From a virus, in the IMG/VR virus record IMGVR_UViG_3300045988_163304, positions 128,001 to 148,444 of that record: 20,444 nucleotides of DNA; one strand, written 5' to 3'. The notes below the pieces were generated by a model. That model ran no database searches, was not told where the DNA came from, and was given only the letters and a program-made list of their open reading frames with translations. Each line of letters opens with the position of its first letter. Position 1 is the stretch's first letter. Made by a program: the position numbers and the translations under genes. Shown here one piece after another: positions 5,589 to 20,444 of this stretch.

Positions 5589-5605
5589 TTTATTATCTCC
5601 TTTTT

Positions 5606-5650
5606 CTCTAAAAAAAATAAGGGGAGAGGGAGTAAATCCCTTCTCCCCTT
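5606..5650 (-). terminator. rho-independent terminator after major capsid gene
   Basis: Hairpin AAGGGGAGAAGGGATTTACTCCCTCTCCCCTT on the minus strand plus a U-run. Near-identical motif to the terminator at 397-440. Confidence 0.6.
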
Positions 5651-5676
5651 AAATGAAATCTATATTAAGGTTTAAA

Positions 5677-6783: not shown

Positions 6784-6800
6784 TATTCTTCTCTCCTTTC

Positions 6801-7736: not shown

Positions 7737-7754
7737 TTAAGTATGTCCTCCTTA

Positions 7755-9341
7755 TTAGTTTTTATTGGCTGATTCTAGAACAGCCTTGACCCAAGCTGGC
7801 ATTCCAGCATCTCTGTCATCATCTAAATTGCTTAAATTATAGGTAGTTGGGCCTTTATTATTATTATCATCATCAAGGTTAAAATTAACCTTGTTGCGAA
7901 CACAAATAACAGAAAGTTTTGCTTCAATATCATCAACAGAATACTTATCAATGTTATCAATAACATCTTTCTTATCATCATCAGACAGCATATAGAATGA
8001 TTGAATCATAGCTTCTTTGTCCTTGCGCTCAATACTATTTTTAAACTCAGTCAAAGAAGTATTAGTTTCACTTAGAGCCTTATTTTCAGCTTCTAACAAA
8101 CTAAATTTATTTTGCAACTCTTCATATTCTACCTTTAAGCTAACATATTCTTCAATTTCATCTAAGGAATACTTTTTCTTTTTCTTTTCATCCTTATCAT
8201 CTTTTGAAGGATCATCATCTTTATTTTCTGACTTTTGACCATTATTTTTAGAAGAACCATCATCTTTTTTATTCTCAGGGTCGCCAGAATTATCGCCCTT
8301 ATCATCGTTTGCCTTTTTATTTTCTTCTTCTTGCTTTTTCTTAAATTCGGTTTCATAAGCTTCAACCGCCTCTAAAGCAAATTGAGGCTCTGCCGCTGGA
8401 GTATAAGATTTAGTCACTTCAATTAAACCTTCACCAGGAACAAGATCATCAGAATCACTCAAAGAAAAGTTTAAACGATAATATTTCATATCTCCGCGAT
8501 CTTGAAGAATAGCAAATTTTTGACTATTATCTTCAAAAACGCCATCAATACGATACTTAGAGCAATAATTGTTAGAGCCATCAGGGAAAGCCTTATTTAC
8601 GTATTCCCATAAAGCACTCCATAGAGAATCTCCGATTTCTACGGCATATCTATTAAACACTTTTGCTCCTCCTTCTTTTAATAATTCTTTTAATTCATTC
8701 ATCATTGAGTATAGTTCATTTTTAAAACTATCATCAAATGAAAGAGAAAACTTTGTAATAGAGGAGCCTTCGAAGCAAGGTTCACACTCTTCTCCTAAAA
8801 TACAAAGTTTAGAAATAATTGCTTCATTAATAATGAAAAACTACGGCTTTCCATTATTATCTTTCGTCCAAGTTCCATCTAAAGTGCCTTCATCAAGTTC
8901 CATAGAATGATTATTACCCTACTCAATGATGCGCTTACATTCTGGATATTGGCCGGTCCATAAATATCCTTCAGTCATAAGATATTCATGTTCATTAACG
9001 CCATCATCTAAAAATTTCTAAAACCAAACCTTGGCACCTAAATCTACAAAACCATAAGGTTTAGTAGTGTCTTTCATTTCAAACTTTCCGTTTGAAATAT
9101 TAATAATTCTATTGTGTTCCTCAAAATCTCCATTAGATTCATTATAAAAACCAACAATAGGACTGCCAGGGAGACTATTAGCCATCTCCCTTGCAGTTTC
9201 TTTAGAAATAATGCTTCGATTGCGATTTGGTTCATCCCCAACGTAGCAAACTTTAATTTGGCATTTAGAAATCAAAGGATTAATAGGAGTTACATTAATA
9301 AATTCACAAGGCGTTTCAAGTTTAATACTTTGATGCTTCAT
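7755..9341 (-). CDS. putative prohead protease/scaffold fusion-like protein, about 528 aa, 3 in-frame TAG
   Basis: Track ORFs 9018..9341 and 7755..8705 are in the same frame (both ends = 2 mod 3). Translating the intervening 8706-9017 gives no TAA/TGA and three TAG (9018, 8919, 8841): ...GAKVWF[Q]KFLDDGVNEHEYLMTEGYLWTGQYPECKRIIE[Q]GNNHSMELDEGTLDGTWTKDNNGKP[Q]FFIINEAIISKLCILGEECEPCFEGSSITKFSLSFDDSFKNELYSMMNELK... The C-terminal part is K/D/E-rich low-complexity plus coiled coil, typical of scaffolds. AAGGAGG ribosome-binding site before ATG 9341. Confidence 0.55.
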
Positions 9342-9613
9342 GATTTACCTCCTTAATTCATTGACTCTTTATTTTTTATGGTTTTTTCACTTTTCTAATC
9401 ATCAGCCTTTTCAGGTCGCCCAGACTATTTTGTTTCAGTAGTCTGTTTTGTAGTAGTCTATTGATTACTACTTCCTGAATTATTTTGTGTTTTATTCTAA
9501 TTGTTTGAACCTTTATTACCCAAAACATCTTGACTACTCATAGTAGAAGACATTAATGGCGGGATCATAATTTCAGTTAATTTCAACACATCATTTTCAA
9601 ATACCGCAGTATT
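9342..9613 (-). promoter_or_regulatory. intergenic region upstream of the head-morphogenesis operon, with GTAGTC/GACTAC inverted-repeat hairpins
   Basis: CAGACTA-N11-TAGTCTG at 9421-9445, GTAGTAGTC-TATT-GATTACTAC at 9451-9473, and TGACTACTCATAGTAG at 9531-9546. No ORF. Largest non-coding gap in the late block. Confidence 0.45.
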
Positions 9614-11014
9614 TAAAATAAAACTCTAAGAATGACCAAGAGCAATTTGAGGTAGCATCTTAGAATAACCAAGTTGCGTTTGTTCTTTATACAATTTTGA
9701 CATTTCTTTATAATTATATTGTGTAGTTTCAAGCATATAAAATTTAAAACTATATTTCTTATTGTTCGCAACTTTCATCTTTACTATTCTATCAAAAAAA
9801 ATGTTAAATTGCAACAACAAGTTTCTAACAGTTGATTCATCATTGAGGATAGACTTCTCTAATGATAAATTACCATCAGTATTGAATAAATTTTGAGAAA
9901 TACCTAAATTATTATAGACAGTACGTTCAACTTTTGCTAAATCATCTGTAGTAGTTGTAGTATTTTTATCTGATAAATCAATAGATTGAACATCAGTAAA
10001 TGTTGTTAAAACATCAACACCAATAGCTCTTGATAACATAGCAACAGCATTATTATGTATATCACGAGATTCATCAATATCAAATATTAAATCACCATTT
10101 TTATCCATAGGAAGTTTTTGAACAATAATTTTTAACAACTTCTACATTTGTTTTCTGCGATCTAAATCTTGAGCAGCGTCTAAATCCATGAGAGCAGGGA
10201 TAGAATTGATAAATGGTGGTGTATCACTGCCATTAAAATTAAATTTCACACTTAATTCTGGAGATAGTAAATACCAACTTCCACTATAATCTCCCTTAAT
10301 ATCAGGAAGTAATTTTCCCTTCTTATATAAAACATATCCACGCTAAAATTCTTCAGGGAATAATTTTAATACGCGCATACGATAATTAGGATCTGGAAAC
10401 TAATCAAAAAATCGCATATCAAACTCAATTGCTGGCATACCAGCCACAAAGTATCTAGAACGGCAATAACTAGCAGGCAATTCTTGTAACATTAAACTAT
10501 TTGCAGATTGCACTATATATCCATAATAACAACCATTTTTCATAATACTTTGAGCAATATCACCGCAGATTTTTTTAATATAAGTATTATCTAAGTAATT
10601 TAATAACTTTGAGAAATCTTTTAAAACTTTTTCATCTTTTACCGTATCATCTAAAATCTCTGGAGCGACATACCAATCATATCTATACAAATAAGCAAAA
10701 TAATTACATACTCGCTCATAAATACCGCTAATATCATAAAATAAATTAGAAATTCTACGCATTTCAACAATATCACGATTTATCATAGCTCGTAATACAT
10801 CATTTTTAGTGACCATGCGACATGGACCACGACGATTAGGATATAAACGAGCAAATGACCCTAAATCTAATACAGCATCATCTAATGTTTGAACTCCAAC
10901 TTTTATTTTACGATATTCTGTTGGATCAGCAGTTCGATAATCACTTGTTCCATTGCTGATATTAAATCCTTTGGAGTGGATGATTTCCTAACGTGATAAT
11001 TCTTTAGTATCCAA
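9614..11014 (-). CDS. putative portal protein, about 466 aa, 4 in-frame TAG
   Basis: Track ORFs 10400..10816 and 9626..10138 are in the same frame and joined by clean sequence across TAG at 10400, 10343, 10142 and 9626. Probable TTG start 11012-11014 after AAGGAGGTG ribosome-binding site. TAA at 9614-9616. Located just downstream of the terminase, as is usual for portal genes. Portal identity is inferred from position and size. Confidence 0.5.
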
Positions 11015-11026
11015 AATTCCACCTCC

Positions 11027-11383
11027 TTAATATCCAGCTAATTGCATTATATAATCATATGTAATAAGATTCTCGTCTGTATAAGGAATCTCTATTAATT
11101 TAAAATCATGTAAAGCACAAAAACGTCGTTTCTGATTATCATTATACTGTTGTTGGTATAAACCTTTTTTACCACCAAATTTCGCACTAGGCTCATAATG
11201 CTATTTACCCTAATATTCAATAATAAAATCAATTCTACCATCATCATCAAAAACGACAAAATCAAAACGTAAAGGTCTACCACTTGGTGCTTTTAAATCT
11301 GGAAAAATATATTCCATTTTAAATGGTAATTCAGCTTGTCGCAAAATCTCTTCAATTTTAATTTCGCCTCTAGACGCTCTCAT
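11027..11383 (-). CDS. small PD-(D/E)XK (DUF559/Vsr-like) endonuclease-like protein, 118 aa, 2 in-frame TAG
   Basis: GGAGGTAATT then ATG 11381-11383. Reads MRASRGEIKIEEILRQAELPFKMEYIFPDLKAPSGRPLRFDFVVFDDDGRIDFIIEY[Q]GK[Q]HYEPSAKFGGKKGLYQQQYNDNQKRRFCALHDFKLIEIPYTDENLITYDYIMQLAGY. The D...IEx(Q)GxxH pattern resembles the EvDGxxH core of DUF559 nucleases. Confidence 0.5.
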
Positions 11384-11393
11384 AATTACCTCC

Positions 11394-13127
11394 TCAATTT
11401 AAGAAACACCAATCTTTAGCATTAAACTTTTTACGTTTCTTCTTTTTATCTTCTTCTAATTTTAAATAATATAGTCCATATTCAAAAGCAGAAAATTTAT
11501 CTTTTCGGATACTTTTATTTGCTTGCTTCAGGATAATGTTTACTCCTTCAGTCTCTTCACGCAAATTCATCATTTCTTCTTTTAATATGGAAGTTAATGT
11601 AAATGGTTTTAATTCTTCTGCCCTCTATTCTGGAGTCATAGTTTGACCTTTCTTTTTAGCAAGGAGTTTATTTTTTGCTACGCGCTCATCAATTAAAAAT
11701 TTCACTTTTCCAGAAGCAAGTTGTGATTTGGCAATCGCATGAGCTTCTGTATTAAGTGGCGCATTAGCTTTTATAATATACATAGCATCTAATACTGTAT
11801 TAGATGTTTTATATTTTTTATAAAATAAATCATCATCATTGACAACGCCAAAATCAGGGAAAATTTCATTGGTTTCAGGATCAATCTATGTCTTAACCAT
11901 ATAATCAATTAAACCAATTCCTAAACCATTACCATCAATTACAATTCTATCAGCATTATATTTATAATATAATTTTTTTAATTTAATAGTTTGGTCTTCA
12001 AAATGTTCATCAGATAATGTGTATATATTTACTAAACTTTTAATTGAACCACCTTGTGATTGTGGAGTCACTTTAAATACGCAAATGACTGAATCACATC
12101 CTTTACGACCGACATCAACAGCAAGTACATAAGATGCTAATTTTGAATTACGCCCAGATGCTTCATATTCAGGCTAATTTAATATTCTATTTCTATCAAA
12201 TATTTCAGCATTAAAAAATGCATCTTCTACTGTGCCAGACCATTTACTTTCATATTCTCGGTCAAATGAACTTTCATTGAACGTTCCGTCCATTTTTAAG
12301 TCTTTAATAAAATTCGCATCTAATAATTTCATTAAAACAGGAATACGATAAGTACCACCCATAATGATAGATTGCTAAGGTTTAACAATCTCCCAAACTA
12401 ATAATTGAATTAATTTATCATAAGGGAAAGTATTTTTATATCCAGCAGTAGTAATATAAATTTGAGATTTATTAAGAGTTTCATCGGGTTGAGTAGTACC
12501 ATCCATACACATACGAGAAATATTCATTGTAGGAATAATAACTTGTGATAAAATATCACCATCAACACCAACGCACTCTTCAATTAAACCGCCGTGGCGG
12601 CGTTTACCACGAGAAGACTCTCTTGCAGCAATATTATCGAAATATGAACCATTTTTAAATACATATTTAACATAATCTTTACCTTCAAGTGTCTAACCAC
12701 GACGCCAATCTATTTCTTTCTAAAATGCAGGAATAAGAGTACAAATTTCTTGAACTTTTTCTTTTACAATTCCAGCCGCTTGTTCTTTACCACCAGAAGT
12801 AATAAATAATTTGCATCTAGGATATAGAATAGCACGACACATTAAGACCATCATTGATAAAAAAGATTTTGAATAAGCACGAGGGAATACAGCATAAATA
12901 TATTTATGACGCATCGCAGCGCGCAAAAAGATTCTCTAATAAAAATAGAGTTTAAAATGTTGAGGGCCGCCATCAGGCCCAGCCATAAAGTCGATAAACA
13001 TATCTGGATATTCTCTCCAAAAGGCTATGTACTATCTTGCTTCTGGTATAATCGCACGAAGACGGTCCTCTGAAATTCCAATCTTTTTACGCTTCTAAGA
13101 TAAATCAAGTAAATCCTATAAAGCCAT
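11394..13127 (-). CDS. terL: terminase large subunit, about 577 aa, at least 6 in-frame TAG
   Basis: ATG 13125-13127 sits one nt after the upstream TAA. N-terminus reads MAL[Q]DLLDLS[Q]KRKKIGISEDRLRAIIPEAR[Q]YIAFWREYPDMFIDFMAGPDGGPQHFKLYFY[Q]RIFLRAAMRHKYIYAVFPRAYSKSF (terminase N-terminal motif plus deviant Walker A). Includes track ORFs 12720..12926, 12174..12362 and 11886..12071. The last carries VIDGNGLGIGLID, a nuclease-domain Asp motif, followed by ...GVVNDDDLFYKKY...LDAMYII. TGA stop at 11394-11396. Confidence 0.7.
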
Positions 13128-13128
13128 A

Positions 13129-14325
13129 TTATCCTTCTAAATTCCTTAAAGTCTAAGCATCTATTTCAGACTCTTCCTCAAGGAAATCATTATATTCAAT
13201 TAAATCTTCATCTTTAAGATGATCGATTTCTTCCATCGTTAAATCTTCTTCAATATCTTGATCTTCTTCTTTATTTTCCTCTTCTTGCATTTTCTTAATA
13301 GCCCCTTCAATGAGATTACCTAGATTCATCTCTTCAGTGACTAATGTGTGTGTATAATTCTTTAAATCTTGTAAAGTTTCATCAACTTTATCTTTTGGAC
13401 CTTCTGTATAATACCGAGGAATAAATCCTTCAGTCTCACACATGGCCACTAATTCTCCAATAGAATCAAATGCTTCTCCTGTGTCTGCTTTATTTTGAGC
13501 GGCGGTGAAATTACCTGATTTCATTAGACTATCATAAACCTTGCTCATCTTTTGAAAACCTTCGATATCACCAATATCGATCAACTAGTTTGCTTTTAAG
13601 GATGTCTTACAAATTAATTTTAATGTATCAATATGACCAGCGCCGCGAATATCATAAGAACTCATCATTTCTTCATAAAGTTGCTCTAGTTTAACCCATT
13701 CTTCGGGTTTATACGCTTTACCCCACTTCATACGAAGATATAAAATATCTTCTTCTGTTAAATCGAGGTCATCTGCTGGGTCATGTTCAATACCATTCTA
13801 TTGATCAAAATAATTATCACCATCTCTAAAACGTTCTGGCAATTCAGGAGTATAAGGTTTTAATTCTTCTTCTGGAATAGCGACAGTAGATTTAGCAATA
13901 GCCGTTGCTATTTGCTAAGCATCATATCCTTGACGTTTCATAGTTTGCTCTAATTTATTATTAGCCACTTCCTATAAAAACTCAGAATCTTTCCATCGAT
14001 AATCTTTATATTGTTTAAGTTTCATTTTGGACAAATATCTACCTAAAATACTCATACCAGTTAATTTAGATTTATCTTGTCCATATTTCATTAGTAATTT
14101 ACTCCACTCCTCTGGAACATAAGGTATATCAATTTCTTGTAAAATCCACATATAAGTTTCTGGATTCCAGTTATCTACAAGCATTGTAATACATTTTTTA
14201 CATTGAGGGAGTTTTCCATCATTTGGATATTTTTCTAAATTATTAGATGTATAAAACTGGTCAGCACCCATAGTTCTATTACATCGTTCACAATAATATA
14301 CTTTATTACTATTATCTACAGTCAT
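13129..14325 (-). CDS. zinc-ribbon plus acidic C-terminus protein, about 398 aa, 4 in-frame TAG (possible terminase small subunit, from position)
   Basis: AAGGAGGA ribosome-binding site then ATG 14325. Track ORFs 13972..14325 (CxxC...CxxC) and 13153..13584 (acidic tail) are in the same frame. The intervening 13585-13971 translates cleanly with TAG at 13972, 13915, 13798 and 13585, plus TAG 13153. TAA at 13129-13131 immediately precedes the terL ATG. Confidence 0.5.
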
Positions 14326-14367
14326 AATTTTCCTCCTTATATTTATCCAATAACAGGCCTCTCAAAA

Positions 14368-15432
14368 TTATAACTGTTTGCCCTTGTTTTTGGCATTACG
14401 GCATTTTTTACAAATACTATAATAGCCATCTTTACTGGTTTTATTTTTACTAAAATATTTATTATGTGCTAATTTAATTTGCCCACAGCGACTACATTTT
14501 TTATATTTACCTTTTGCTTTATGTAAATAATAATCATATAGGTATTGGTCTTCAGCCGCAGAGGCGATTAATTTTGGAATTTTATTGCGCCATAAACTAG
14601 AAATATATTCTAAGCTATGAGTAATATTAAATTCCTCTTGAATTTTCTTTTGAATGTCTATATTCTATAATCCATCAATTTTATATTCAACTATTCTATC
14701 ATATAAAGGATAATCTTTAAGAGCAATAGTACATAAATTATCAAAATCTTCCATAATATACCATAAATCTCTTTCAAAATCTCCCCAACTATCTTGTTTT
14801 AAACGAGAATAATTACATAAAATTGCAGAACATACTCTAGGATCTAATAGTGAAACGCCATCCGGGATTGGATAACCATCATCATCAAAAATGCAAGTCG
14901 TGTCCTCTAATGGAATAAAATTTCTTGAACGAGTAATTTTAGTCATAATAATTGGACGACGAACTGCATTTTTAATAACATACTAATCTTTACGCATTTC
15001 AATAATAGCACGTTTAATTATAAATGCTTCGCGCCCTTCACTAACTCGTAATTTGGCTTCCCAAGTAGTAATGGCGTCTCTTAACTATTTTAAATGAGGT
15101 ATTTCTTCTATATCTTTTTTAGTAATTGTAATTTTGGGCTAAAATATTGTATTTTTATTTTCAGTAATTAAATTATAAATTCCATCTTCGCCATTCTCAA
15201 ATTGGGAAACAAGACCTTCAAAAGATGTTTCACGTTTATTAACTGTTGCCATACGATTATCAGTTAATAATTTACGCTCCTTTTTCTCTTGTTTCTCCAT
15301 ACAAAGAATGATATAGTCCCCTAATATTTCTAAATATCGAGGAGAGGGGTCTGGGGTTTCCTCTAATATTTTCTTGACTAATTCATTTCTTTCTTCTGGA
15401 GTTTGTAAGGAATAATCTAATTTTATCATCAT
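14368..15432 (-). CDS. hypothetical protein, about 354 aa, 4 in-frame TAG, C-terminal CxxC-N-CxxC zinc ribbon
   Basis: GGAGGTA ribosome-binding site then ATG 15432. Track ORFs 15139..15432 and 14665..14946 are in the same frame and joined through TAG at 15139, 15085 and 14983. Extended through TAG 14665 to TAA 14368-14370 (...CSRCGQIKLAHNKYFSKNKTSKDGYYSICKKCRNAKNKGKQL). First gene after the leftward promoter. Confidence 0.5.
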
Positions 15433-15457
15433 TACCTCCAGATTTTTTTACGTCTTC

Positions 15458-15486
15458 ATTATACAAAAAATTTTTCCAGGTGTCAA
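15458..15486 (-). promoter_or_regulatory. sigma-70/sigma-A consensus promoter (leftward)
   Basis: Minus strand reads TTGACA (revcomp of 15481-15486), a 17-bp spacer, then TATAAT (revcomp of 15458-15463). GGAGGTA ribosome-binding site and ATG lie about 25 nt downstream. Confidence 0.6.
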
Positions 15487-15541
15487 ATTTTAATAAATGC
15501 ATTTAAAAAATTTTTAAACGATACTATTAATTGGAAAAAAT

Positions 15542-15570
15542 TTGACAATAAAAAAAATTTTTTGTATTAT
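15542..15570 (+). promoter_or_regulatory. sigma-70/sigma-A-like promoter (rightward) for the small-gene cluster
   Basis: TTGACA 15542-15547, 17-bp spacer, TATTAT 15565-15570. AAAGGAGAAG ribosome-binding site then ATG 15601. Arranged back-to-back with the leftward promoter and shares an A/T-tract spacer motif with it. Confidence 0.5.
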
Positions 15571-15600
15571 TATTATAATAAAAAATAAAAGGAGAAGTTT

Positions 15601-15999
15601 ATGGTAATTGCTATTATTATATTAAGTATATTATTAATATTATCTATTATATATAATGTATTGTTTACAAAAGGAGTCACTAAACTTCTTGACCCTGAAA
15701 ACATTGAACAAAAATATAATTTAATAGCAGATTATTATGCAGATGCAAATAATATTGAAGAAAGCTTTCCTTGTTGTTTATTATTATATCTTCAATTTAA
15801 TGCGAAAGAATCTGCAAAAATTGCAGACTTCTCTAATTATGAAAATTCTAATATAATCGCCTATTCAGTTTTGTCCAAGGGTCCGCCACCACCTGGATAC
15901 GCCAATCAACTGGAAGAAGACGGCTCTATAAGAATATTAGTCCGCAATGTTCGAGTAAATAAATATAAGGATGGTGAATATTTTTGGGAGCCTATGTAA
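15601..15999 (+). CDS. membrane-anchored protein, 132 aa (N-terminal TM helix)
   Basis: Track ORF with good ribosome-binding site. Hydrophobic N-terminus MVIAIIILSILLILSIIY. Confidence 0.65.
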   Translation: MVIAIIILSILLILSIIYNVLFTKGVTKLLDPENIEQKYNLIADYYADANNIEESFPCCLLLYLQFNAKESAKIADFSNYENSNIIAYSVLSKGPPPPGYANQLEEDGSIRILVRNVRVNKYKDGEYFWEPM

Positions 16000-16190
16000 T
16001 TGTTATCTTTTGGATAATCATTTCAGCATTAGTAATGTTTGAATATATTGATGCAATTCAAAGCGCCGGTGAAAATAAATTAATTGTTTGTTTAATATTT
16101 TTTATTGGTGGCCCAATATTTGCTGCGAGTGATTTATTACAAAAAATTTTAGATATATTTTTACCGGAAGGGTGGAATGGTGATGACTGA
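15984..16190 (+). CDS. small 2-TM membrane protein, about 68 aa
   Basis: Track ORF with TTG start overlapping the upstream gene. Two hydrophobic segments. Confidence 0.45.
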   Translation: MGAYVIVIFWIIISALVMFEYIDAIQSAGENKLIVCLIFFIGGPIFAASDLLQKILDIFLPEGWNGDD

Positions 16191-16209
16191 AAAATAGATT
16201 AAATATATT

Positions 16210-16500
16210 TTGAAAAATTTTAAACGAGGCACTACTATTCTATTTATGGGTGTATCATTTAATCAATATATTAATCTTGAACAATTAACTGAAGCAGGAT
16301 ATACTTGTATCCTATTAGGTGAAGGTCAAGATTATTGGCCCTATATTAAAAATGATATGATTATTTATATAGATGGTATTGGTAATAAAATAAATTGTTA
16401 TCCATTGCATTGTCCTATTTTTGTATACGATAAAAATCGAGTAATAAATACTAAAAATAGAGATGTGCGCGTTTGGGTAGAAGTGTTAAAAGAGGAGTAA
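16210..16500 (+). CDS. hypothetical protein, about 96 aa
   Basis: Track ORF. The start could be ATG 16246 instead of the alternative start used by the track. Confidence 0.5.
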   Translation: MKNFKRGTTILFMGVSFNQYINLEQLTEAGYTCILLGEGQDYWPYIKNDMIIYIDGIGNKINCYPLHCPIFVYDKNRVINTKNRDVRVWVEVLKEE

Positions 16501-16501
16501 T

Positions 16502-16795
16502 ATGAAAATTTATAAATATTTAATTGAAACTCCAGGGTCTACTCATATTATGGATCATTTGACAGATATTGTATCTACTGGATTAGATGTAAATAATAAT
16601 CCATGCGTATGGGCAGTTTATGATGAAAAAGCACCCAAAAAATATTTTCAAATTAATGCTGTTGGCACAGGTTGGGAATTGGATAAATATGTAAATAATA
16701 ATGACAAATATTTAGGAGTTATTAATGATGGCGAGTATATTTGGCATATTATTAAGTCTTCTGGAGAAAAATGTCATATAATGGAGGAGAAATGA
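16502..16795 (+). CDS. hypothetical protein, 97 aa
   Basis: Track ORF. ATG overlaps the upstream stop (TAATATG). TGA stop. Confidence 0.6.
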   Translation: MKIYKYLIETPGSTHIMDHLTDIVSTGLDVNNNPCVWAVYDEKAPKKYFQINAVGTGWELDKYVNNNDKYLGVINDGEYIWHIIKSSGEKCHIMEEK

Positions 16796-16799
16796 TTTT

Positions 16800-17117
16800 A
16801 TGGAAGAAGGAAAAAATTATTTTGATATTGTAATGCGAGAAGGCCAAGCAATAGTTCATAATGAAGGTTCTATTCATTAGGTTGATAGCTTAGGCCGTCT
16901 TGTTTTTCCTAAGAATTTAAGACAAAAATATGGTATTGCTCCTGGCGACCGTATGGAATTTTATACTATTGAATATAATGGTGAAGTTTATGTTGGAGTG
17001 CGAGTGAGTAAACGATATGGTAGTAGAATAGAGTATTTACGCGCTAAAGAAGTATTAGATGATTTAGGAATTGAAATTCCTCAAAAACTAACTGATGCTA
17101 TTAATGGAGTAATGTAA
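16800..17117 (+). CDS. AbrB/SpoVT (swapped-hairpin) family DNA-binding protein, 105 aa, 1 in-frame TAG
   Basis: ATG 16800, TAG at 16878-16880, then VDSLGRLVFPKNLRQKYGIAPGDRMEFYTIEYNGEVYVGVRV. This is a textbook AbrB/MazE-type motif lying directly after the TAG. TAA at 17115-17117. Shows TAG is read as sense on the plus strand too. Confidence 0.65.
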
Positions 17118-17118
17118 T

Positions 17119-17262
17119 ATGCCTAAATATAAAAGTTTTGGAAATGCGCTTGCTGCTAAAATGCAGAAAAAGGCTAATTATTATGCTACTAAAGCAGTTC
17201 ATCAAATTGTATGGGGTGAAAACCCTAAACGGGGTCGTCCTAAGAAGGAGAATAAGAAATGA
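17119..17262 (+). CDS. small basic protein with AT-hook-like motif, 47 aa
   Basis: ATG overlaps the upstream stop. Reads MPKYKSFGNALAAKMQKKANYYATKAVHQIVWGENPKRGRPKKENKK. It contains the RGRP AT-hook core. Confidence 0.45.
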   Translation: MPKYKSFGNALAAKMQKKANYYATKAVHQIVWGENPKRGRPKKENKK

Positions 17263-17342
17263 TTCTTGAAGCATTAGCATTAATAGGATTAATTTTATTT
17301 TTTCCTATTTGGCTTTTTGGTAGGAATAAGATTAAGAAGTAA
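17259..17342 (+). CDS. possible 27-aa hydrophobic peptide
   Basis: ATG within ATGA overlap with the previous stop. Reads MILEALALIGLILFFPIWLFGRNKIKK. TAA stop. No independent ribosome-binding site. Confidence 0.3.
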   Translation: MILEALALIGLILFFPIWLFGRNKIKK

Positions 17343-17354
17343 TTAAAAAAATTC

Positions 17355-17408
17355 TACCGTTATTTGAATTGAAAAAAGTTTTACCGTTATTTGAATTGAA
17401 AAAAGTTT
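17355..17408. repeat. tandem direct repeat, 27 bp x 2 (TACCGTTATTTGAATTGAAAAAAGTTT)
   Basis: Two identical units at 17355-17381 and 17382-17408 immediately after the last AT-rich-part gene, at the composition junction. Confidence 0.8.
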
Positions 17409-17668
17409 TGGTGAGAGTTTGTACCAGCCAAACAAAAAAATAAAAAGCAAAAAAAATTTTTTCCCGAAACCCACCCCCCGGTCGGTTTTTATCTGAGAAA
17501 AAATCTGAACACTATCGAGACCTTCTTGGGCTTGGTGCACGCGGAAAGGCTAGACCATCCCCAATACAGCCCCTCAACTCGCAGAACCGCGAATGGGCGT
17601 CGCGGTCCTCATTCGCAATAAATACAAACTCCACAAAAAATCTCTCGCAAATTTGTGTATTCTGCCAA

Positions 17669-17697
17669 TAGACAAGCATCCTGAAATCTGGTATAAT
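17669..17697 (+). promoter_or_regulatory. promoter, TAGACA-17-TGgTATAAT (extended -10)
   Basis: -35 at 17669-17674, TG at 17689-17690, TATAAT at 17692-17697. Paralogous to the promoter at 19632-19660 (shared TGCCAATAGACAA). Confidence 0.55.
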
Positions 17698-17722
17698 AGT
17701 ATCATCAAAGGAGGAATGATCT

Positions 17723-17818
17723 ATGTCTATCATCTACAAAGTCGTGCGCTTCATCGTTGCGGTCGCCGCTATCGCTGGCACTGGTATCTTAATGTGCCTC
17801 ATCTGCCTCCCTCACTGA
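17723..17818 (+). CDS. 31-aa hydrophobic peptide (type-I-toxin-like or leader peptide)
   Basis: AGGAGG (17709-17714), 8-nt spacer, ATG. Reads MSIIYKVVRFIVAVAAIAGTGILMCLICLPH. TGA stop lies inside the terminator hairpin. Confidence 0.45.
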   Translation: MSIIYKVVRFIVAVAAIAGTGILMCLICLPH

Positions 17819-17830
17819 GGGAGGTTTTTT
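17806..17830 (+). terminator. rho-independent terminator
   Basis: CCTCCCTC-ACT-GAGGGAGG, an 8-bp perfect stem, followed by TTTTTT. Confidence 0.7.
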
Positions 17831-18033
17831 GTTGCCCAAAGATTGTTAAAAATTTAACGATGTAGCAAGATTGTTAAAAGATTAACAATGTAGCGAGATT
17901 GTTAAAAATTTAACAAACACTCAACCAAGAGAGAACAAGGACACGCACGGCACAGTGGACAAGGCAGAGCGAGCCAACGAGCGAGCGACCAACAGACAAA
18001 GAGAACAACACACAACACAACACAATGATAAAT

Positions 18034-18057
18034 ACATTGTTAATGTATTAACAATGT
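18034..18057. repeat. perfect 24-bp palindrome ACATTGTTAATGTATTAACAATGT
   Basis: Read directly from the sequence. It sits at the switch point between a T-poor flank (17921-18030) and a C-poor flank (18058-18127). Confidence 0.9.
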
Positions 18058-18079
18058 AGTATAGTAGTATGGTATGGTA

Positions 18080-18100
18080 GGGTGTAGGGCAGGGGTAGGG
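18080..18100 (+). other. canonical G-quadruplex motif GGGTGTAGGGCAGGGGTAGGG
   Basis: Four G-runs of at least 3 with 2-4 nt loops, inside a nearly C-free 70-nt stretch. Confidence 0.6.
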
Positions 18101-18513
18101 TGTAGGTAGTAGGTGGTGGAGGAGAGTAGACCAACAATAAGAGATGCGAACGCGCTTCCCACCGGTCGGCTCACCGGGAACCGCGCACCAATAAATCTAA
18201 TGTAAGTATTCCATTTCTCTTTTGGGTTCATCATCGTTAACGGCCCTAATCGCCCAAGAATAAGCCCTCGCACTATTGCCAAACAATACAGCAGGGCAGG
18301 TGCTGAACAACGCGTGTCCCACAATGCACAGTTTGCACAGAGGGGCGAGCAAGATTGTTAAACATTTAACAATGTGAGAACCAAGAGCAAGAGAGTAAAG
18401 AGTGCGCTTGCACAGGTAGCAAGGAGGATACACACGGCACAGTTGATACATTTGCTGACCGAGCAAGATTGTTAAAAAATTCACAATGTGTGGATGTGGT
18501 GAAGTTGCTGTTT

Positions 18514-18535
18514 GATTGTGAAAATTTTCACAATC
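18514..18535. repeat. perfect 22-bp palindrome GATTGTGAAAATTTTCACAATC
   Basis: Read directly from the sequence. Confidence 0.9.
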
Positions 18536-18675
18536 GCTGTTGGATGCCGAACACGGACGCCGCGCCCCTAACTTCACCACGTTAAAGTGTTAAAGAAAAA
18601 AAATCGCAAATCCGATTGTTAAAATAATCACAATCTCTGTCCCGAAAATAAGTAGGTTATTTTTGAAAAAACCCC

Positions 18676-18704
18676 TTGACAAATTGCCCCAAGTGTGCTA
18701 CAAT
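18676..18704 (+). promoter_or_regulatory. promoter TTGACA-17-TGTGCTACAAT with upstream TTTTTGAAAAAA A-tract
   Basis: -35 at 18676-18681, -10 TACAAT at 18699-18704 with TG at -15/-14. Paralogous to the promoter at 20369-20397. Confidence 0.6.
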
Positions 18705-18734
18705 GATTACAGTAAAACAAAGGAGGATGATACA

Positions 18735-18971
18735 ATGTCTAACATCTATGGAGTCTGCTACACCACCAAAGAGCCTGTTGTTTACAACAGAGGGACACAG
18801 TGGGAAAAAACCTGTTCTGATTTTCTGTTCGTTCAGGCACGCAAGGATAATGGCACGGAGCTGGTGGACAAGCTGAACGCCCTGCTTGCTGAGGGTGTGG
18901 AAAAGTACGAACTGCTGGACTTGACCAAGATTGACCATTTCTATCTTGCTCAGTCTGAGGAAATGTATTAA
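18735..18971 (+). CDS. small hypothetical protein, 78 aa
   Basis: AGGAGG plus 8 nt then ATG 18735. Reads MSNIYGVCYTTKEPVVYNRGTQWEKTCSDFLFVQARKDNGTELVDKLNALLAEGVEKYELLDLTKIDHFYLAQSEEMY. TAA stop. GC-rich codon usage. Confidence 0.6.
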   Translation: MSNIYGVCYTTKEPVVYNRGTQWEKTCSDFLFVQARKDNGTELVDKLNALLAEGVEKYELLDLTKIDHFYLAQSEEMY

Positions 18972-18984
18972 GGAGGAAATGACT

Positions 18985-19173
18985 ATGACACGCACTATCG
19001 CTAATACCTACATCTGCATCAACGCCGAGGGACAGACGCTCTCCATCATCGCCCGCACGGGCAACGAAGCCCACAACATTGCAATAGGGTTTCTACGGAA
19101 AGCCAACATCGTGAGCGTTCGCCGTGTGTTCAAGTCCGGCAAGCTGGGCAAGGAAATTCTGAAAATCAAATAA
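18985..19173 (+). CDS. small hypothetical protein, 62 aa (second gene of a two-gene operon)
   Basis: AAGGAGGA plus 8 nt then ATG 18985 (an alternative ATG is at 18979). Reads MTRTIANTYICINAEGQTLSIIARTGNEAHNIAIGFLRKANIVSVRRVFKSGKLGKEILKIK. TAA stop, then a terminator. Confidence 0.6.
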   Translation: MTRTIANTYICINAEGQTLSIIARTGNEAHNIAIGFLRKANIVSVRRVFKSGKLGKEILKIK

Positions 19174-19179
19174 AATAAA

Positions 19180-19203
19180 CAGGGCGCAAGCCCTGTTTTT
19201 TTT
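19180..19203 (+). terminator. rho-independent terminator CAGGGC-GCAA-GCCCTG plus T8
   Basis: 6-bp perfect stem with a GNRA tetraloop and a U-run. Confidence 0.8.
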
Positions 19204-19213
19204 GAAAAAACTA

Positions 19214-19242
19214 TTGACAAACATAAATAAGCGTGTTATAAT
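19214..19242 (+). promoter_or_regulatory. promoter TTGACA-17-TGtTATAAT with upstream TTTTTTTGAAAAAA
   Basis: -35 at 19214-19219, -10 at 19237-19242. Near-duplicate of the promoter at 20041-20069. Confidence 0.65.
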
Positions 19243-19274
19243 AAATACAGAAATTAAGAAATGAGGTACACGAA

Positions 19275-19463
19275 ATGAAAAACATCTATGAAATCGAGAA
19301 CATCATCGACGAAATTCCCGCTGATGATTGGGCTGGCATTTGTAATCTGATGGACTACTACTATCAGTCGAATTTCTCCGCTGATGCTGAGCAGAGACTG
19401 GCAAGAGCAATCGCGCCTTACGGTTTAACCACAGAGGAAATCCTGACTTGGGACGCTGAGTAA
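19275..19463 (+). CDS. small acidic hypothetical protein, 62 aa
   Basis: Track ORF. Ribosome-binding site GAAATGAGGT. TAA stop lies in the terminator loop. Confidence 0.6.
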   Translation: MKNIYEIENIIDEIPADDWAGICNLMDYYYQSNFSADAEQRLARAIAPYGLTTEEILTWDAE

Positions 19464-19478
19464 GCGTCCTTTATTTTT
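19451..19478 (+). terminator. rho-independent terminator GGACGC-TGAGTAA-GCGTCC plus TTTATTTTT
   Basis: 6-bp stem. The loop contains the stop codon of 19275..19463. Confidence 0.65.
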
Positions 19479-19631
19479 ACTACTGGATTGTTAAAACTTT
19501 AACGAGCATCGTCGCGCCCATCAAGCACGTGGCGCCCCGAAATATTATACCACAGCAGTCCACCAGTTGTCAAGAGAAAAATGCGAAAATTTCGCACAAA
19601 ATTTGCTATCCCGATTTGTATAGTTTGCCAA

Positions 19632-19660
19632 TAGACAAAATGAAATAAGCATGTTATAAT
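19632..19660 (+). promoter_or_regulatory. promoter TAGACA-17-TGtTATAAT
   Basis: -35 at 19632-19637, -10 at 19655-19660. Paralogous to the promoter at 17669. Preceded by the 9th palindrome (19486-19506) and a perfect inverted repeat TGCGAAAATTTCGCA (19581-19595). Confidence 0.55.
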
Positions 19661-19692
19661 GAATACAACAAAACAACAAAGGAGATACAAAG

Positions 19693-20001
19693 ATGATTAA
19701 CATTCGTTCTATCCGCAAACTGGGTGAAAATGATGGGCTGACGCTCAAAATGGGCAAAAAGGTAAACTATAAATCCGGCTGGCAGGTTGCCACAGAGGGC
19801 GTGGAATGTAAGACCGCACAGGAAGCCATTGACGCGGTGAGAGACTATGGCGGAAATTGCGGCGTATGGTTCAGCGAGGGCATTTATTACATCGACAAAA
19901 GCAAGCGCGTGGCGACAAAGCGTGAAGCTATGGAAATCGGCAAAGCGTGTAATCAAATTTCCGTGCTGAAATGGGCGACTATGACGCTTGCATACTGCTA
20001 A
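19693..20001 (+). CDS. hypothetical protein, 102 aa
   Basis: Track ORF. GGAGAT ribosome-binding site. TAA stop, then a terminator. Confidence 0.65.
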   Translation: MINIRSIRKLGENDGLTLKMGKKVNYKSGWQVATEGVECKTAQEAIDAVRDYGGNCGVWFSEGIYYIDKSKRVATKREAMEIGKACNQISVLKWATMTLAYC

Positions 20002-20006
20002 AATAA

Positions 20007-20030
20007 TAGGGCGAAAGCCCTATTTTTTTT
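20007..20030 (+). terminator. rho-independent terminator TAGGGC-GAAA-GCCCTA plus T8
   Basis: 6-bp stem, GAAA tetraloop, U-run. Confidence 0.8.
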
Positions 20031-20040
20031 GAAAAAAGTA

Positions 20041-20069
20041 TTGACAAACCGCTTTTAACCTGCTATAAT
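20041..20069 (+). promoter_or_regulatory. promoter TTGACA-17-TGcTATAAT with upstream TTTTTTTTGAAAAAA
   Basis: -35 at 20041-20046, -10 at 20064-20069. Confidence 0.65.
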
Positions 20070-20099
20070 TAAACCATCAAAAGAGAGGAGCTAAAAGCT

Positions 20100-20291
20100 A
20101 TGACAAACTTTGAACAGTATTTCGAGAAACTGATGGGGATGAAGAAAGCGGAAATCATCAATGAGGGCATCACTTGGGGCTTCTGGGCGAACACCGAGGG
20201 CAACAAAGCCGAGCTGATGAAATGGAAAAAAGTGCTGCTGGCGCGTTCCCTCGCCGATAGGCTGGAAAGACTGGAAAGGCGGGGCTACTAA
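20100..20291 (+). CDS. small hypothetical protein, 63 aa
   Basis: Track ORF. Ribosome-binding site GAGAGGAG. TAA stop. Confidence 0.6.
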   Translation: MTNFEQYFEKLMGMKKAEIINEGITWGFWANTEGNKAELMKWKKVLLARSLADRLERLERRGY

Positions 20292-20293
20292 GA

Positions 20294-20318
20294 CAAGGGC
20301 GAAAGCCCTTGTTTTTTT
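20294..20318 (+). terminator. rho-independent terminator CAAGGGC-GAAA-GCCCTTG plus T7
   Basis: 7-bp stem, GAAA loop, U-run. Confidence 0.8.
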
Positions 20319-20368
20319 ATATGGCATTATGCCCATAATTCGGTTGAAAATTTTGGTCATTTTGCCTA

Positions 20369-20397
20369 TTGACATCCTGCCCCATTTGTGCTATACT
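20369..20397 (+). promoter_or_regulatory. promoter TTGACA-17-TGcTATACT
   Basis: -35 at 20369-20374, -10 at 20392-20397. Shares the CTGCCCCA-N-TGTGCTA spacer motif with the promoter at 18676. Confidence 0.55.
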
Positions 20398-20401
20398 CGG
20401 T

Positions 20402-20426
20402 CGCGCGCCCACGGCCCTGGCGCGCG
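20402..20426 (+). other. GC hairpin at predicted transcript 5' end (GCGCGCC-N9-GGCGCGC)
   Basis: Stem at 20403-20409 pairs with 20419-20425, directly after the predicted start site. The downstream gene is beyond the window. Confidence 0.4.
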
Positions 20427-20444
20427 AAATTTACCATTATACCA

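What the first reader, a model, noticed from the sequence alone, without database searches (positions are those of the whole stretch)
17921..18130. Mirror-image strand composition around the perfect palindrome, with a G-quadruplex motif
The 110 nt left of the 24-bp palindrome (18034-18057) are almost T-free (A/C/G only, CA-repeat rich). The 70 nt to its right are almost C-free (G/T/A), including GGGTGTAGGGCAGGGGTAGGG. Both strands reading away from the palindrome are therefore G+T-rich and C-poor. This is far beyond mutational skew and suggests a designed or functional element: a bidirectional origin, divergent C-less transcripts, or a packaging or recombination site.
Basis: seen in the sequence. 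Interest (0 to 1): 0.6.

Follow-up and report, generated by a model that had tools for sequence, protein, structure and literature searches.

The report
Phage array of Rex-type operator sites
The "palindrome" is the best of nine copies of the binding site of the host redox sensor Rex, clustered in untranslated DNA at the start of a gut phage's early genes; the oddly one-sided base composition beside it is mostly short-repeat spacer DNA, not an origin or a conserved G-quadruplex.

Summary
The skew is real. There are 5 T in 113 nt to the left of the palindrome and 1 C in 73 nt to the right, and the window's only G4 motif lies at 18080-18100. The "mirror" claim is only half right: both outward-reading strands are about 73% G+T, but the left one is A-poor, not C-poor.

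The palindrome has 12-nt arms around a non-symmetric GT centre. It is one of nine dyads matching TTGTTAANNNNTTAACAA, or TTGTGAA...TTCACAA. That is the published operator of the NADH/NAD+ sensor Rex in Clostridia. All nine lie within 1.7 kb, at the junction between the late genes (30% GC, TAG-recoded) and the early genes (45% GC) of a ~197-kb gut phage.

- Similar arrays head the early region of distant relatives, which have no skewed blocks.
- They also sit near the ends of unrelated phi29-like phages.
- The same tandem boxes precede an AdhE-like gene in a Clostridiales genome.

The skewed blocks are cryptically simple DNA: (GAGC)n and ACA repeats on the left, GGTAGG repeats on the right. The G-rich block is hypervariable, and the G4 motif is kept in only 6 of 14 unique sequences.

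I found no conserved ORF, no RNA structure and no origin signature. Rex binding and its purpose (sensor or sponge) are inferred, not shown.

The parts
17669..17830 (+). Upstream cassette. It holds a sigma-A-type promoter (TAGACA-17-TGnTATAAT, 17669-17697), a 31-aa hydrophobic ORF (17723-17818) and an intrinsic terminator (17805-17830). The box array starts 10 nt after the terminator.
   Evidence: The ORF product is not on record in the protein collection.
17839..17922 (.). Three tandem 28-bp units, each carrying a Rex-type box: 17843-17860 (1 mismatch), 17871-17888 (0) and 17899-17916 (0).
   Evidence: family D1; period 28, 2.8 copies. The consensus TTGTTAANNNNTTAACAA is the Rex box of Clostridiaceae.
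17918..18032 (+). T-poor spacer S1 (5 T in ~115 nt). It is made of: a purine-rich motif C (CAACCAAGAGAGAACAAGG, ~17922-17940); motif B (ACACGCACGGCACAG, 17941-17956); (GAGC)5.5 at 17967-17988; and ACA-type repeats at 18005-18025.
   Evidence: Motifs B and C recur in the paralogous spacer 18374-18467 (D3/D14, 45) and in the distant relative L044. Indels of +2, -4, +6 and +12/-8 nt in relatives rule out coding.
18033..18058 (.). Inverted repeat with 12-nt arms and a GT centre. It contains a perfect Rex-type box, TTGTTAATGTATTAACAA (18037-18054).
   Evidence: It is invariant in 14 unique sequences except L022, where the centre is flipped (TGTA->TACA). It lies in the least diverse segment of the locus (pi 0.025 for 18005-18079).
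18037..18065 (+). Weak promoter-like site TTGTTA-17-TATAGT. Its -35 lies inside the box, and it points into the G-rich block.
   Evidence: 9 of 12 matches; chance is not excluded. The -10 varies in relatives: TATAGT in most, TACAGT in L036 and TATAAT in L042. It is not found at boxes of the distant relative L044.
18025..18054 (-). Weak promoter-like site TTGTTA-18-TATCAT on the minus strand. Its -35 is the other half of the box, and it points into the T-free block, so any RNA from it would be A-free.
   Evidence: 9 of 12 matches. It is conserved in close relatives.
18058..18130 (+). C-poor, G-rich spacer S2a (1 C in 73 nt), built from GTAGTATA and GGTAGG-type units. The G4 motif is at 18080-18100. 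The hypervariable part is 18080-18125.
   Evidence: Diversity is pi 0.22, against 0.05-0.06 in the neighbouring genes, and there are many indels. A canonical G4 is present in 6 of 14 unique sequences.
18131..18353 (.). GC-rich spacer S2b with local hairpins (18150-18185 and 18289-18305). Its composition is not skewed and it is not repetitive.
   Evidence: k-mer redundancy not significant. The minus-strand ORF 18040-18324 is broken by frameshifts in relatives. RNA folds have z close to 0.
18355..18534 (.). Module 2, a paralogue of 17895-18100. It runs: box 18355-18372; T-poor spacer with motifs C and B (18374-18467); box 18469-18486; GT-rich spacer (18488-18514); box 18516-18533. That last box is TTGTGAAAATTTTCACAA, a perfect match to the general Rex consensus.
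   Evidence: (D3, D14).
18616..18633 (.). Eighth Rex-type box (TTGTTAAAATAATCACAA), 40 nt upstream of the first strong early promoter (18676-18704).
19488..19573 (-). Ninth box (19488-19505). It lies downstream of a perfect leftward promoter (TTGACA-18-TGnTATAAT, 19573->19544) and a GC hairpin.
   Evidence: The same unit (terminator, box, hairpin, leftward promoter) occurs three times in L044.

Best explanation
**What it is.** The region 17,839-18,634, plus one outlier at 19,488, is an array of nine operator sites for the host redox-sensing repressor Rex. Rex is a dimer that binds DNA at a low NADH/NAD+ ratio and is released by NADH. The array lies in untranslated DNA at the head of the early-gene region of a ~197-kb phage that infects gut Clostridia and reads TAG as a sense codon. 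The "palindrome" is the most symmetric box of the array.

**The skewed blocks.** The T-free block to its left and the C-free, G-rich block to its right are the spacers on either side of that box. They owe their one-sided composition to what they are built from:
- On the left, two T-free motifs of unknown function (motifs B and C) that are conserved in the phage family.
- On both sides, lineage-specific slippage expansions of short units.

The polarity of these units mirrors the inter-box linker TGTAG|CRAGA. The first half of that linker is C-free and lies 3' of a box. The second half is T-free and lies 5' of the next box. The G4 motif is a by-product of the GGTAGG-type repeat.

**How it probably works (inferred).** There are two possibilities. 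Rex bound to the array could couple early phage events to the host's NADH/NAD+ state. Alternatively, the replicating array could titrate Rex and so derepress host fermentation genes.

**Shown here:** the sequence match to the Rex consensus, the clustering, the recurrence in other phages and at a bacterial Rex-type target gene, and the simple-sequence nature and variability of the spacers.

**Inferred:** that Rex actually binds, and what the phage gains from it.
For: **The boxes**
- Nine dyads lie within 1.7 kb. At the 3-mismatch threshold the whole window gives 11 matches where about 1 is expected by chance, including two stray 3-mismatch hits outside the cluster.
- In relative L034 there are again nine boxes in 1.9 kb and none in the other 18 kb.
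- The boxes match TTGTTAANNNNTTAACAA with 0-1 mismatches, and one is a perfect TTGTGAANNNNTTCACAA.
- Both strings are published Rex consensus sequences. The clostridial one was recovered by DAP-seq and validated by EMSA in C. thermocellum.

**Recurrence elsewhere**
- In a Clostridiales genome (L046), three such boxes, two of them 28 bp apart, flank a TTGACA promoter directly upstream of an Aldedh-family (AdhE-like) gene. That is a classical Rex target.
- Arrays of 9-18 boxes occupy the same position in distant relatives L015, L024, L029, L016 and L044.
- Arrays of 4-5 tandem boxes lie 100-280 nt from the contig ends of two phi29-like phages.

**The spacers**
- TRF units and k-mer redundancy show they are simple sequence.
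- Indels in relatives are built from local motifs.
- S2a has four times the diversity of its surroundings.
- T-freeness is not strictly kept: there are about 6 singleton C->T changes against about 10 G<->A changes.
- The skewed blocks are absent from L015, L016 and L029.
- Motifs B and C are shared with L044.
- The flank polarity, 5' AGCnAGA and 3' TGT..G, is seen in this clade.
Against: - No binding data exist, and the host is unknown. The only hint is that L044 was binned with an Acutalibacteraceae MAG.
- Regular tandem arrays of near-identical sites are more typical of iterons or centromeres bound by an element's own protein than of host operator sites.
- Crp/Fnr-type regulators recognise the related core TGTGA-N6-TCACA (from my own knowledge).
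- I hold only about 35 kb of the 197-kb genome, so a phage-encoded binder, including a Rex homologue, cannot be excluded.
- S1 is as conserved as the neighbouring genes (pi 0.054). The core 18005-18079, which includes the ACA repeats and the first 20 nt of the G/T block, is the most conserved stretch of the locus. So part of the skewed DNA may be under constraint that this explanation does not account for.
- The linker-expansion origin of the polarity is an inference drawn from sequence resemblance alone.
Confidence: 0.55

Rival explanations
1. The boxes are iterons or a centromere or regulatory array bound by a phage-encoded dimeric protein, possibly a Rex mimic. On this view the locus is the phage replication origin or a partition / early-to-middle switch site, and the strand-asymmetric blocks serve as loading or unwinding zones.
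For: - The tandem phasing is regular (28 bp) and some relatives carry 6 identical copies.
- Several further repeat families are interleaved with the boxes: motifs B, C and D.
- The layout (three dyad repeats, then an asymmetric spacer, then an inverted repeat) resembles ori-lambda, as I recall it from my own knowledge.
Against: - The motif equals the host Rex consensus at all 14 specified positions. Its variation runs along the T/G and A/C axis that separates the two published Rex consensus sequences.
- The same array occurs in phi29-like phages with no detectable shared protein, and at a bacterial adhE-like promoter.
- The spacers are ~50% GC, not AT-rich.
- The cumulative GC-skew minimum is at ~15,500, not here.
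- No replication or partition gene was recognised nearby.
Confidence: 0.15
2. The inverted repeat is a Rex-gated pair of divergent promoters. When NADH rises, Rex leaves and host RNA polymerase makes a C-free, G-rich RNA rightward and an A-free RNA leftward. The G-rich non-template strand then forms an R-loop or G4 that primes replication, or the RNAs act as small regulators.
For: - Both -35-like hexamers lie inside the box, and -10-like hexamers sit 17 and 18 nt away.
- The core 18005-18079 is the least diverse part of the locus.
- A G-rich non-template strand lies immediately downstream of the rightward site, and it holds the only G4 motif in the window.
Against: - Both sites score only 9 of 12, in a region where 5 such matches are expected by chance. 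The phage's real early promoters score 11-12 of 12 and carry a TG extension.
- No terminators follow either site.
- The G4 motif is lost in 8 of 14 unique sequences.
- The leftward RNA has no G>C skew.
- RNA folds of either strand are no better than shuffled sequence: z = -0.95, -0.55, -0.02 and +0.6.
- Rfam finds nothing.
- No equivalent promoter hexamers flank the boxes in L044.
Confidence: 0.1
3. The untranslated repeat region marks a physical or functional boundary of the genome. It could be a terminus or packaging site. It could also be an injection-stop region like the T5 iss region (the phage T5 injection stop signal), where arrays of host-protein boxes hold the entering DNA.
For: - The locus lies exactly at the late/early junction, where GC steps from 30% to 45%.
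- Several short contigs break at 17,485-17,490 and inside the G-rich block. One 129-kb contig overlaps itself by 363 nt across 17,765-18,113.
- phi29-like phages carry the array next to their ends.
- The T5 iss region is likewise an untranslated region full of repeats, inverted repeats and palindromes, with 8 DnaA boxes.
Against: - Three independent contigs of ~197.5-199 kb contain the locus. In two it is internal, and in the third it lies several kb from an end.
- Contig breaks are expected at hypervariable or repetitive DNA.
- No read-level data are available.
Confidence: 0.1
4. Nothing here is functional. The boxes and skewed blocks are selfish or neutral repeats that happen to resemble a Rex site.
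For: The spacers evolve by slippage, and the skewed blocks are lineage-specific.
Against: - The array is kept at the same genomic position across relatives that are only ~69% identical in their late genes.
- The central box and its flanks are the most conserved DNA of the locus.
- The same motif was acquired independently by phi29-like phages.
Confidence: 0.05

Closest known systems
Rex operator sites (ROP / Rex boxes) of Clostridia and other Gram-positive bacteria
   Same: An 18-bp dyad, TTGTTAA-N4-TTAACAA (Clostridiaceae) or TTGTGAA-N4-TTCACAA (general). The window's boxes match with 0-1 mismatches. Tandem boxes 28 bp apart also occur at an AdhE-like gene in a Clostridiales genome.
   Different: Known Rex boxes are single or paired sites in promoters of fermentation and respiration genes on bacterial chromosomes. 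Here there are nine (up to 18 in relatives), in untranslated phage DNA and mostly not over promoters. I found no report of Rex-box arrays in phages in the searchable library.
Phage T5 injection-stop-signal (iss) region with its eight DnaA boxes
   Same: A large untranslated stretch at the edge of the first-expressed genes of a big lytic phage. It is dense with repeats, inverted repeats and palindromes, and carries an ordered array of binding sites for a host DNA-binding protein.
   Different: The host protein differs (DnaA versus Rex-type), as do the phage lineage and the host (Gram-negative). Nothing is known about two-step DNA entry for this phage, and the role of the DnaA boxes in T5 is itself a hypothesis.
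phi29 use of host regulator sites (Spo0A boxes near early promoters and genome ends; parS sites). Cited from my own knowledge.
   Same: A lytic phage places binding sites for a host global regulator near its early promoters and genome ends, so that its development follows the host's physiological state. The phi29-like contigs L012 and L033 carry the Rex-type array at the equivalent place.
   Different: The signal sensed would be redox state (NADH/NAD+) rather than entry into sporulation. This has not been tested.
ori-lambda-type origins (dyad iterons, then a strand-asymmetric region, then a palindrome). Cited from my own knowledge.
   Same: The order of elements is similar: tandem dyad repeats, a strand-asymmetric spacer, then an inverted repeat.
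   Different: The spacer is not AT-rich, the repeats equal a host operator, no initiator gene surrounds them, and there is no skew switch at the site.
Cryptically simple sequence / microsatellite slippage tracts
   Same: Short units (GAGC, ACA/ACACA, GGTAGG, GTAGTATA), length polymorphism between close relatives, and high local diversity in the G-rich tract.
   Different: The tracts sit in a conserved architecture. The left tract embeds two family-conserved motifs and is no more variable than the neighbouring genes.

Membership tests
Rex operator (Rex box) | 18-bp inverted repeat matching TTGTTAANNNNTTAACAA or TTGTGAANNNNTTCACAA | tested here: met
   Nine sites with 0-1 mismatches to one or the other consensus.
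Rex operator (Rex box) | The same motif stands in front of canonical Rex-regulon genes in bacteria of the likely host group | tested here: met
   L046 (Clostridiales UBA1775): three boxes around a TTGACA promoter directly upstream of an Aldedh-family, AdhE-like ORF.
Rex operator (Rex box) | The site overlaps or adjoins the promoter it controls | tested here: inconclusive
   Only weak promoter-like hexamers flank the central box. Box 19488 lies ~40 nt downstream of a perfect leftward promoter. Box 18616 lies 40 nt upstream of the first strong early promoter. The other boxes have no promoter.
Rex operator (Rex box) | Bound by Rex dimer and released by NADH; host encodes Rex | not testable with these tools
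The only hint is L044, binned with an Acutalibacteraceae MAG.
G-quadruplex element | Four or more runs of at least 3 G, with loops of 1-7 nt | tested here: met
   18080-18100, the only such motif on either strand of the window.
G-quadruplex element | Motif conserved among relatives | tested here: not met
   Present in 6 of 14 unique sequences. The tract is hypervariable, with pi 0.22.
Bidirectional replication origin | AT-rich unwinding element next to initiator sites | tested here: not met
   S1 is 50% GC and S2a is 51% GC.
Bidirectional replication origin | Cumulative GC-skew extremum at the site | tested here: not met
   The minimum is at ~15,000-15,500, where gene orientation flips. The curve is flat across 17,500-20,000.
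Bidirectional replication origin | Replication actually starts here (marker frequency, 2D gels) | not testable with these tools
   No read or culture data are available.
Structured non-coding RNA | Fold more stable than shuffled sequence, covariation, or an Rfam match | tested here: not met
   z-scores are -0.95, -0.55, -0.02 and +0.60. The alifold covariation term is unfavourable, with 3 compensatory pairs out of 80. There is no Rfam hit at gathering threshold, and only sub-threshold hits of no relevance (E 0.1-0.5) at E<=1.
Protein-coding sequence | Reading frame conserved in relatives | tested here: not met
   The minus-strand ORF 18040-18324 is frameshifted in L001, L003, L006 and L007. 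S1 has indels of 2, 4 and 6 nt.
Genome terminus / packaging site | Fixed ends at this position in independent assemblies or reads | tested here: inconclusive
   Contigs of 197-199 kb run through the locus. However, several short contigs break here, and one 129-kb contig has a 363-nt terminal overlap across it.

The most novel reading that the evidence does not exclude
Lytic phages of gut and rumen Clostridia, from at least two unrelated families, carry tandem arrays of the host Rex operator at the leading edge of their early regions or at their genome ends. They would use host NADH/NAD+ sensing in one of two ways:
- As a gate, so that development or replication proceeds only in metabolically reduced, actively fermenting cells.
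- As a DNA sponge, so that the replicating array strips Rex from the chromosome and derepresses fermentation genes to the phage's benefit.

In the strongest form of this reading, the central box with its G-rich, R-loop-prone flank is a Rex-gated start site for replication or for a regulatory RNA.
Probability: 0.3. Interest if true: 0.7.

Novelty: new variant of a known kind. Interest (0 to 1): 0.45.

Why it matters
If the boxes are real Rex sites, this would link the redox state of anaerobic gut bacteria directly to phage development or to phage takeover of host metabolism. It would parallel phi29's use of Spo0A and the DnaA boxes of T5, but for a different signal and in the poorly studied TAG-recoding gut phages. 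The idea is easy to test with EMSA or DAP-seq using Rex with and without NADH. It could also help predict hosts for uncultured phages.

The skew and the G4 motif that prompted the finding are of minor interest on their own. They illustrate how slippage in spacers between repeated sites can mimic a "designed" composition.

Tried and rejected
1. **Long RNA hairpin.** I tested whether the A/C/G-only left arm pairs with the G/U-rich right arm through G-U wobbles. Folds are no better than shuffles on either strand.
2. **Structured RNA downstream.** The candidate pairing was between the G-rich tract and the C-rich tracts at 18220-18280. z is close to 0 and there is no useful covariation.
3. **Known RNA family.** Rfam finds nothing at gathering threshold, and only irrelevant sub-threshold hits at E<=1. 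There are no tRNA genes.
4. **Minus-strand ORF through the G-less tract (18040-18324).** The frame is not conserved in relatives.
5. **Chimeric assembly as the cause of the GC step.** The junction is present in many independent contigs.
6. **Similarity to annotated phages.** blastn of 17400-20444 finds nothing. phAss-1 has a single Rex-type box and no array in the 95 kb I held.
7. **L032 as an independent case.** It has G-less flanks around two boxes, but it looks like non-phage low-complexity DNA with a tandem duplication, so I discarded it.
8. **One wasted collection scan.** I gave the wrong spacer length.
9. **CsrA-sponge reading of motif B.** The GGA is not conserved between the L044 copies and the window copies (sequence inspection).
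10. **Sequence-level inverted duplication of the two flanks.** The reverse complement of the left flank does not align with the right flank beyond ACA/TGT (sequence inspection).
11. **Selection against T in S1.** Singleton C->T changes occur at roughly the rate expected.
Full report
**1. The observation**

The left block (17921-18033) has 52 A, 30 C, 26 G and 5 T. Its T-free runs of 69 and 34 nt are the two longest in the window. It is the only place in 20.4 kb where 60 nt hold two or fewer T. The right block (18058-18130) has 18 A, 1 C, 36 G and 18 T.

Against the composition of the surrounding 45%-GC DNA, the T depletion has P = 5e-8 per window. It was never approached in 300 Markov simulations. 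The C depletion is less exceptional. GGGTGTAGGGCAGGGGTAGGG at 18080-18100 is the only canonical G4 motif in the window.

Two details of the finding are wrong.
- The palindrome is a 12-nt-arm inverted repeat (18033-18058) with a non-symmetric GT centre.
- The left outward-reading strand is A-poor, not C-poor (T52 G30 C26 A5). Both outward strands are, however, about 73% G+T.

**2. What the palindrome is**

It is not unique. A 20-mer dyad, ATTGTTAA-N4-TTAACAAT, occurs nine times between 17,842 and 19,506. At the same 3-mismatch threshold about one match is expected by chance in the whole window.
- Three copies are tandem with a 28-bp period.
- The core, TTGTTAANNNNTTAACAA, is the published Rex-box consensus of Clostridiaceae. 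It was recovered by DAP-seq and confirmed by EMSA in C. thermocellum.
- The copy at 18516-18533, TTGTGAAAATTTTCACAA, is a perfect match to the general Rex consensus.
- The variation among copies is exactly the T/G and A/C difference between the two consensus sequences.

In a scan of one genome per species, the tandem pattern turned up in a Clostridiales genome. There, three boxes surround a TTGACA promoter immediately upstream of an aldehyde-dehydrogenase-family (AdhE-like) gene, a classical Rex target.

**3. Context**

The window is from a phage.
- Positions 1-17,440 are about 30% GC. They carry structural genes on the minus strand (portal and virion proteins) that are interrupted only by in-frame TAG codons. 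This matches the code-15 phage phAss-1, its nearest annotated relative at 50% protein identity.
- From about 17,440 the DNA is about 45% GC. It consists of small plus-strand genes, each with a near-consensus sigma-A promoter and a terminator, which is an early-gene layout.
- The box array fills the 1.2-kb untranslated stretch between the two domains.
- Independent assemblies give contigs of 197.5-199 kb that contain the locus.
- In one of them, nine boxes lie within 1.9 kb and none in the flanking 18 kb.

**4. Relatives**

About 25 close relatives (87-96% identical) were recovered from viral and metagenome collections.

More distant relatives keep an array of 9-18 boxes at the same place, between the late genes and the first early cassettes. 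These are L015, L024 and L029 (69% identity in late genes), L016, and L044. L015, L016 and L029 have ordinary spacers without T-free or C-free blocks.

Two phi29-like phages carry 4-5 tandem boxes 100-280 nt from a contig end. Their identity rests on a DNA polymerase N-terminus that matches PDB 1xhx at 3e-16, and on a weak phi29 SSB hit.

The conserved feature is therefore the box array. The skew is a lineage-specific property of two spacers.

**5. Anatomy and evolution of the skewed spacers**

Both are cryptically simple. TRF reports (GAGC)5.5, (ACAACAC)2 and (ACACA)3 on the left, and (GTAGTATA)2.4 and (GGTAGG)5 on the right. K-mer redundancy exceeds composition-matched shuffles, whereas the next spacer (18131-18353) is ordinary.

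The left spacer also contains two motifs that recur elsewhere:
- CCAAGAGAGAACAAGG (motif C).
- ACACGCACGGCACAG (motif B).

Both recur in the paralogous spacer 18374-18467 and several times in L044. Part of the left spacer is therefore an old, conserved unit of unknown function.

Among 14 unique orthologous sequences, nucleotide diversity is as follows:

| Segment | pi |
|---|---|
| 18005-18079 (box and immediate flanks) | 0.025 |
| Left spacer S1 | 0.054 |
| Adjacent genes | 0.053-0.061 |
| 18080-18130 (G-rich tract) | 0.22 |

- The G-rich tract also has many indels.
- Indels in relatives are built from the local units and are not multiples of three.
- T-freeness is not policed. Six lineages carry singleton C->T changes, against about ten G<->A changes.
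- The canonical G4 survives in 6 of 14 unique sequences.

Boxes in this clade have polar flanks, 5' AGCnAGA and 3' TGT..G. The inter-box linker TGTAG|CRAGA is C-free in the half next to the upstream box and T-free in the half next to the downstream box. Expansion of these halves would give exactly the observed pattern: T-free DNA 5' of a box and C-free DNA 3' of it. The same pattern appears in miniature around the box at 18469. This origin is my inference.

**6. Alternatives tested**

- **Coding.** The minus-strand ORF through the G-less tract is frameshifted in relatives.
- **RNA structure.** Four folds have z between -0.95 and +0.6. The alignment fold has an unfavourable covariation term. 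Rfam finds nothing relevant.
- **Origin.** The spacers are not AT-rich. The cumulative GC-skew minimum lies at about 15,500, where transcription direction changes.
- **Terminus.** Long contigs pass through the locus. However, short contigs tend to break at 17,485-17,490 and in the G-rich tract, and one 129-kb contig overlaps itself by 363 nt across 17,765-18,113. I attribute these breaks to hypervariability and strain mosaicism, but cannot prove that without reads.
- **Divergent promoters.** TTGTTA-17-TATAGT and TTGTTA-18-TATCAT flank the central box and are conserved in close relatives. They score only 9 of 12, where chance gives about five such sites in this region. They are not seen at boxes of L044.

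**7. Most likely mechanism**

*Shown:* a dense, positionally conserved array of sequences identical to the Rex operator at the head of the early region, with spacers that evolve by slippage.

*Inferred:* host Rex dimers occupy the array when NADH/NAD+ is low. The consequence could be sensing: blocking or delaying early events in poorly energised cells, much as phi29 uses Spo0A sites (my own knowledge). It could instead be titration: hundreds of replicating genomes, each with nine or more sites, removing Rex from host promoters and derepressing fermentation. I cannot choose between these. The G4 and the T-free tract need no function of their own under this view. The strong conservation of 18005-18079 leaves room for a local role, such as Rex-gated weak promoters.

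**8. Comparison with known systems**

As a sequence class, the boxes pass the tests for Rex operators that could be run here: consensus match, and occurrence at a canonical target. They could not be tested for binding.

As an arrangement, the closest analogue is the untranslated T5 iss region, with its repeats, palindromes and eight DnaA boxes. The next closest are the host-regulator sites of phi29.

Full-text searches found no report of Rex-box arrays in phages. That library is incomplete, so this is an absence of evidence only.

**9. Verdict**

The interpretations offered (origin, G4 element, packaging site) are not supported. The skew is best explained as simple-sequence spacer DNA within a phage-borne array of Rex-type operators. 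The array, not the skew, is the interesting feature. I rate overall interest as moderate (0.45) and novelty as a new variant of a known kind.

Noticed in passing
window 17,440-17,490: GC steps sharply from ~30% (late, minus-strand genes) to ~45% (early, plus-strand genes). The step is conserved in relatives, and the 45% domain continues for at least 10 kb beyond the window. Three independent short contigs end within 5 nt of each other here (L022, L028, L040), which suggests a strain-mosaic or recombination junction.
   Followed up: partly
window 9,018-10,816 (-) and 16,800-17,117 (+): The portal reading frame is interrupted by eight in-frame TAG codons and by no other stop. An AbrB/MazE-like gene has a conserved in-frame TAG. 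This fits TAG-to-Gln recoding (code 15), as described for phAss-1.
   Followed up: partly
L012 1-290 and L033 14,380-14,724: Two ~17-kb phi29-like phages carry 4-5 tandem Rex-type boxes (28-29 bp period) 100-280 nt from a contig end. In L012 the array lies just upstream of a consensus promoter that is followed by a possible pRNA-like hairpin RNA. The phi29-like assignment rests on the DNA polymerase N-terminus, which matches phi29 DNAP.
   Followed up: partly
window 19,484-19,575; L044 (reverse complement) ~2,538-2,620, ~3,050-3,130, ~3,779-3,860: A conserved unit is placed after early-gene terminators: a Rex-type box, a GC-rich hairpin, and a perfect leftward promoter (TTGACA-18-TGnTATAAT) firing towards the box. 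It may be a short antisense or roadblocked transcript.
   Followed up: no
window 18,566-18,598; L013 590-660; L014 78-150; L044: A further shared motif, CCCC(T)AACTT(C)ACCACGTTAAAG(T/C)GTTAAAG, lies next to the box arrays in several phage contigs. In L013 and L014 it is followed by four TATATAACAG repeats and a CA-rich, T-poor stretch before another palindrome.
   Followed up: no
window 17,941-17,956 and 18,429-18,443; six copies in L044: Motif B (ACACRCACGG..CAG/GCGTTG) and motif C (CCAAGAGARGA) are interleaved with the boxes in this phage clade. Their binding partner or role is unknown.
   Followed up: partly
L022, position equivalent to window 18,044-18,047: The centre of the inverted repeat reads TACA instead of TGTA. 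That is the reverse complement of the loop, as expected from a hairpin or cruciform loop inversion rather than two independent substitutions.
   Followed up: no
window 17,345-17,398: Two tandem 27-bp repeats (AAAAAARTTYTACCGTTATTTGAATTG) lie at the very end of the AT-rich domain, just before the GC step.
   Followed up: no
window 20,351-20,442; L003 1-82, 1,293-1,384, 6,143-6,233: A promoter plus GC-rich hairpin leader element (TTGACAT...TATACT, then GGTCGCGCGCCCACGGCCCTGGCGCGCGA) is repeated at least four times in the early region.
   Followed up: no
L005 1-363 and L021 8,966-9,328: The start and end of what appears to be one 129-kb contig are identical over 363 nt. The overlap spans window 17,765-18,113, so the assembly's terminal overlap falls exactly on this locus and ends inside the G-rich tract.
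   Followed up: partly
window 18,056-18,130: There are eleven TAG triplets in 75 nt, in a phage that reassigns TAG. This is probably just a consequence of the GGTAGG/GTAG repeat unit.
   Followed up: no
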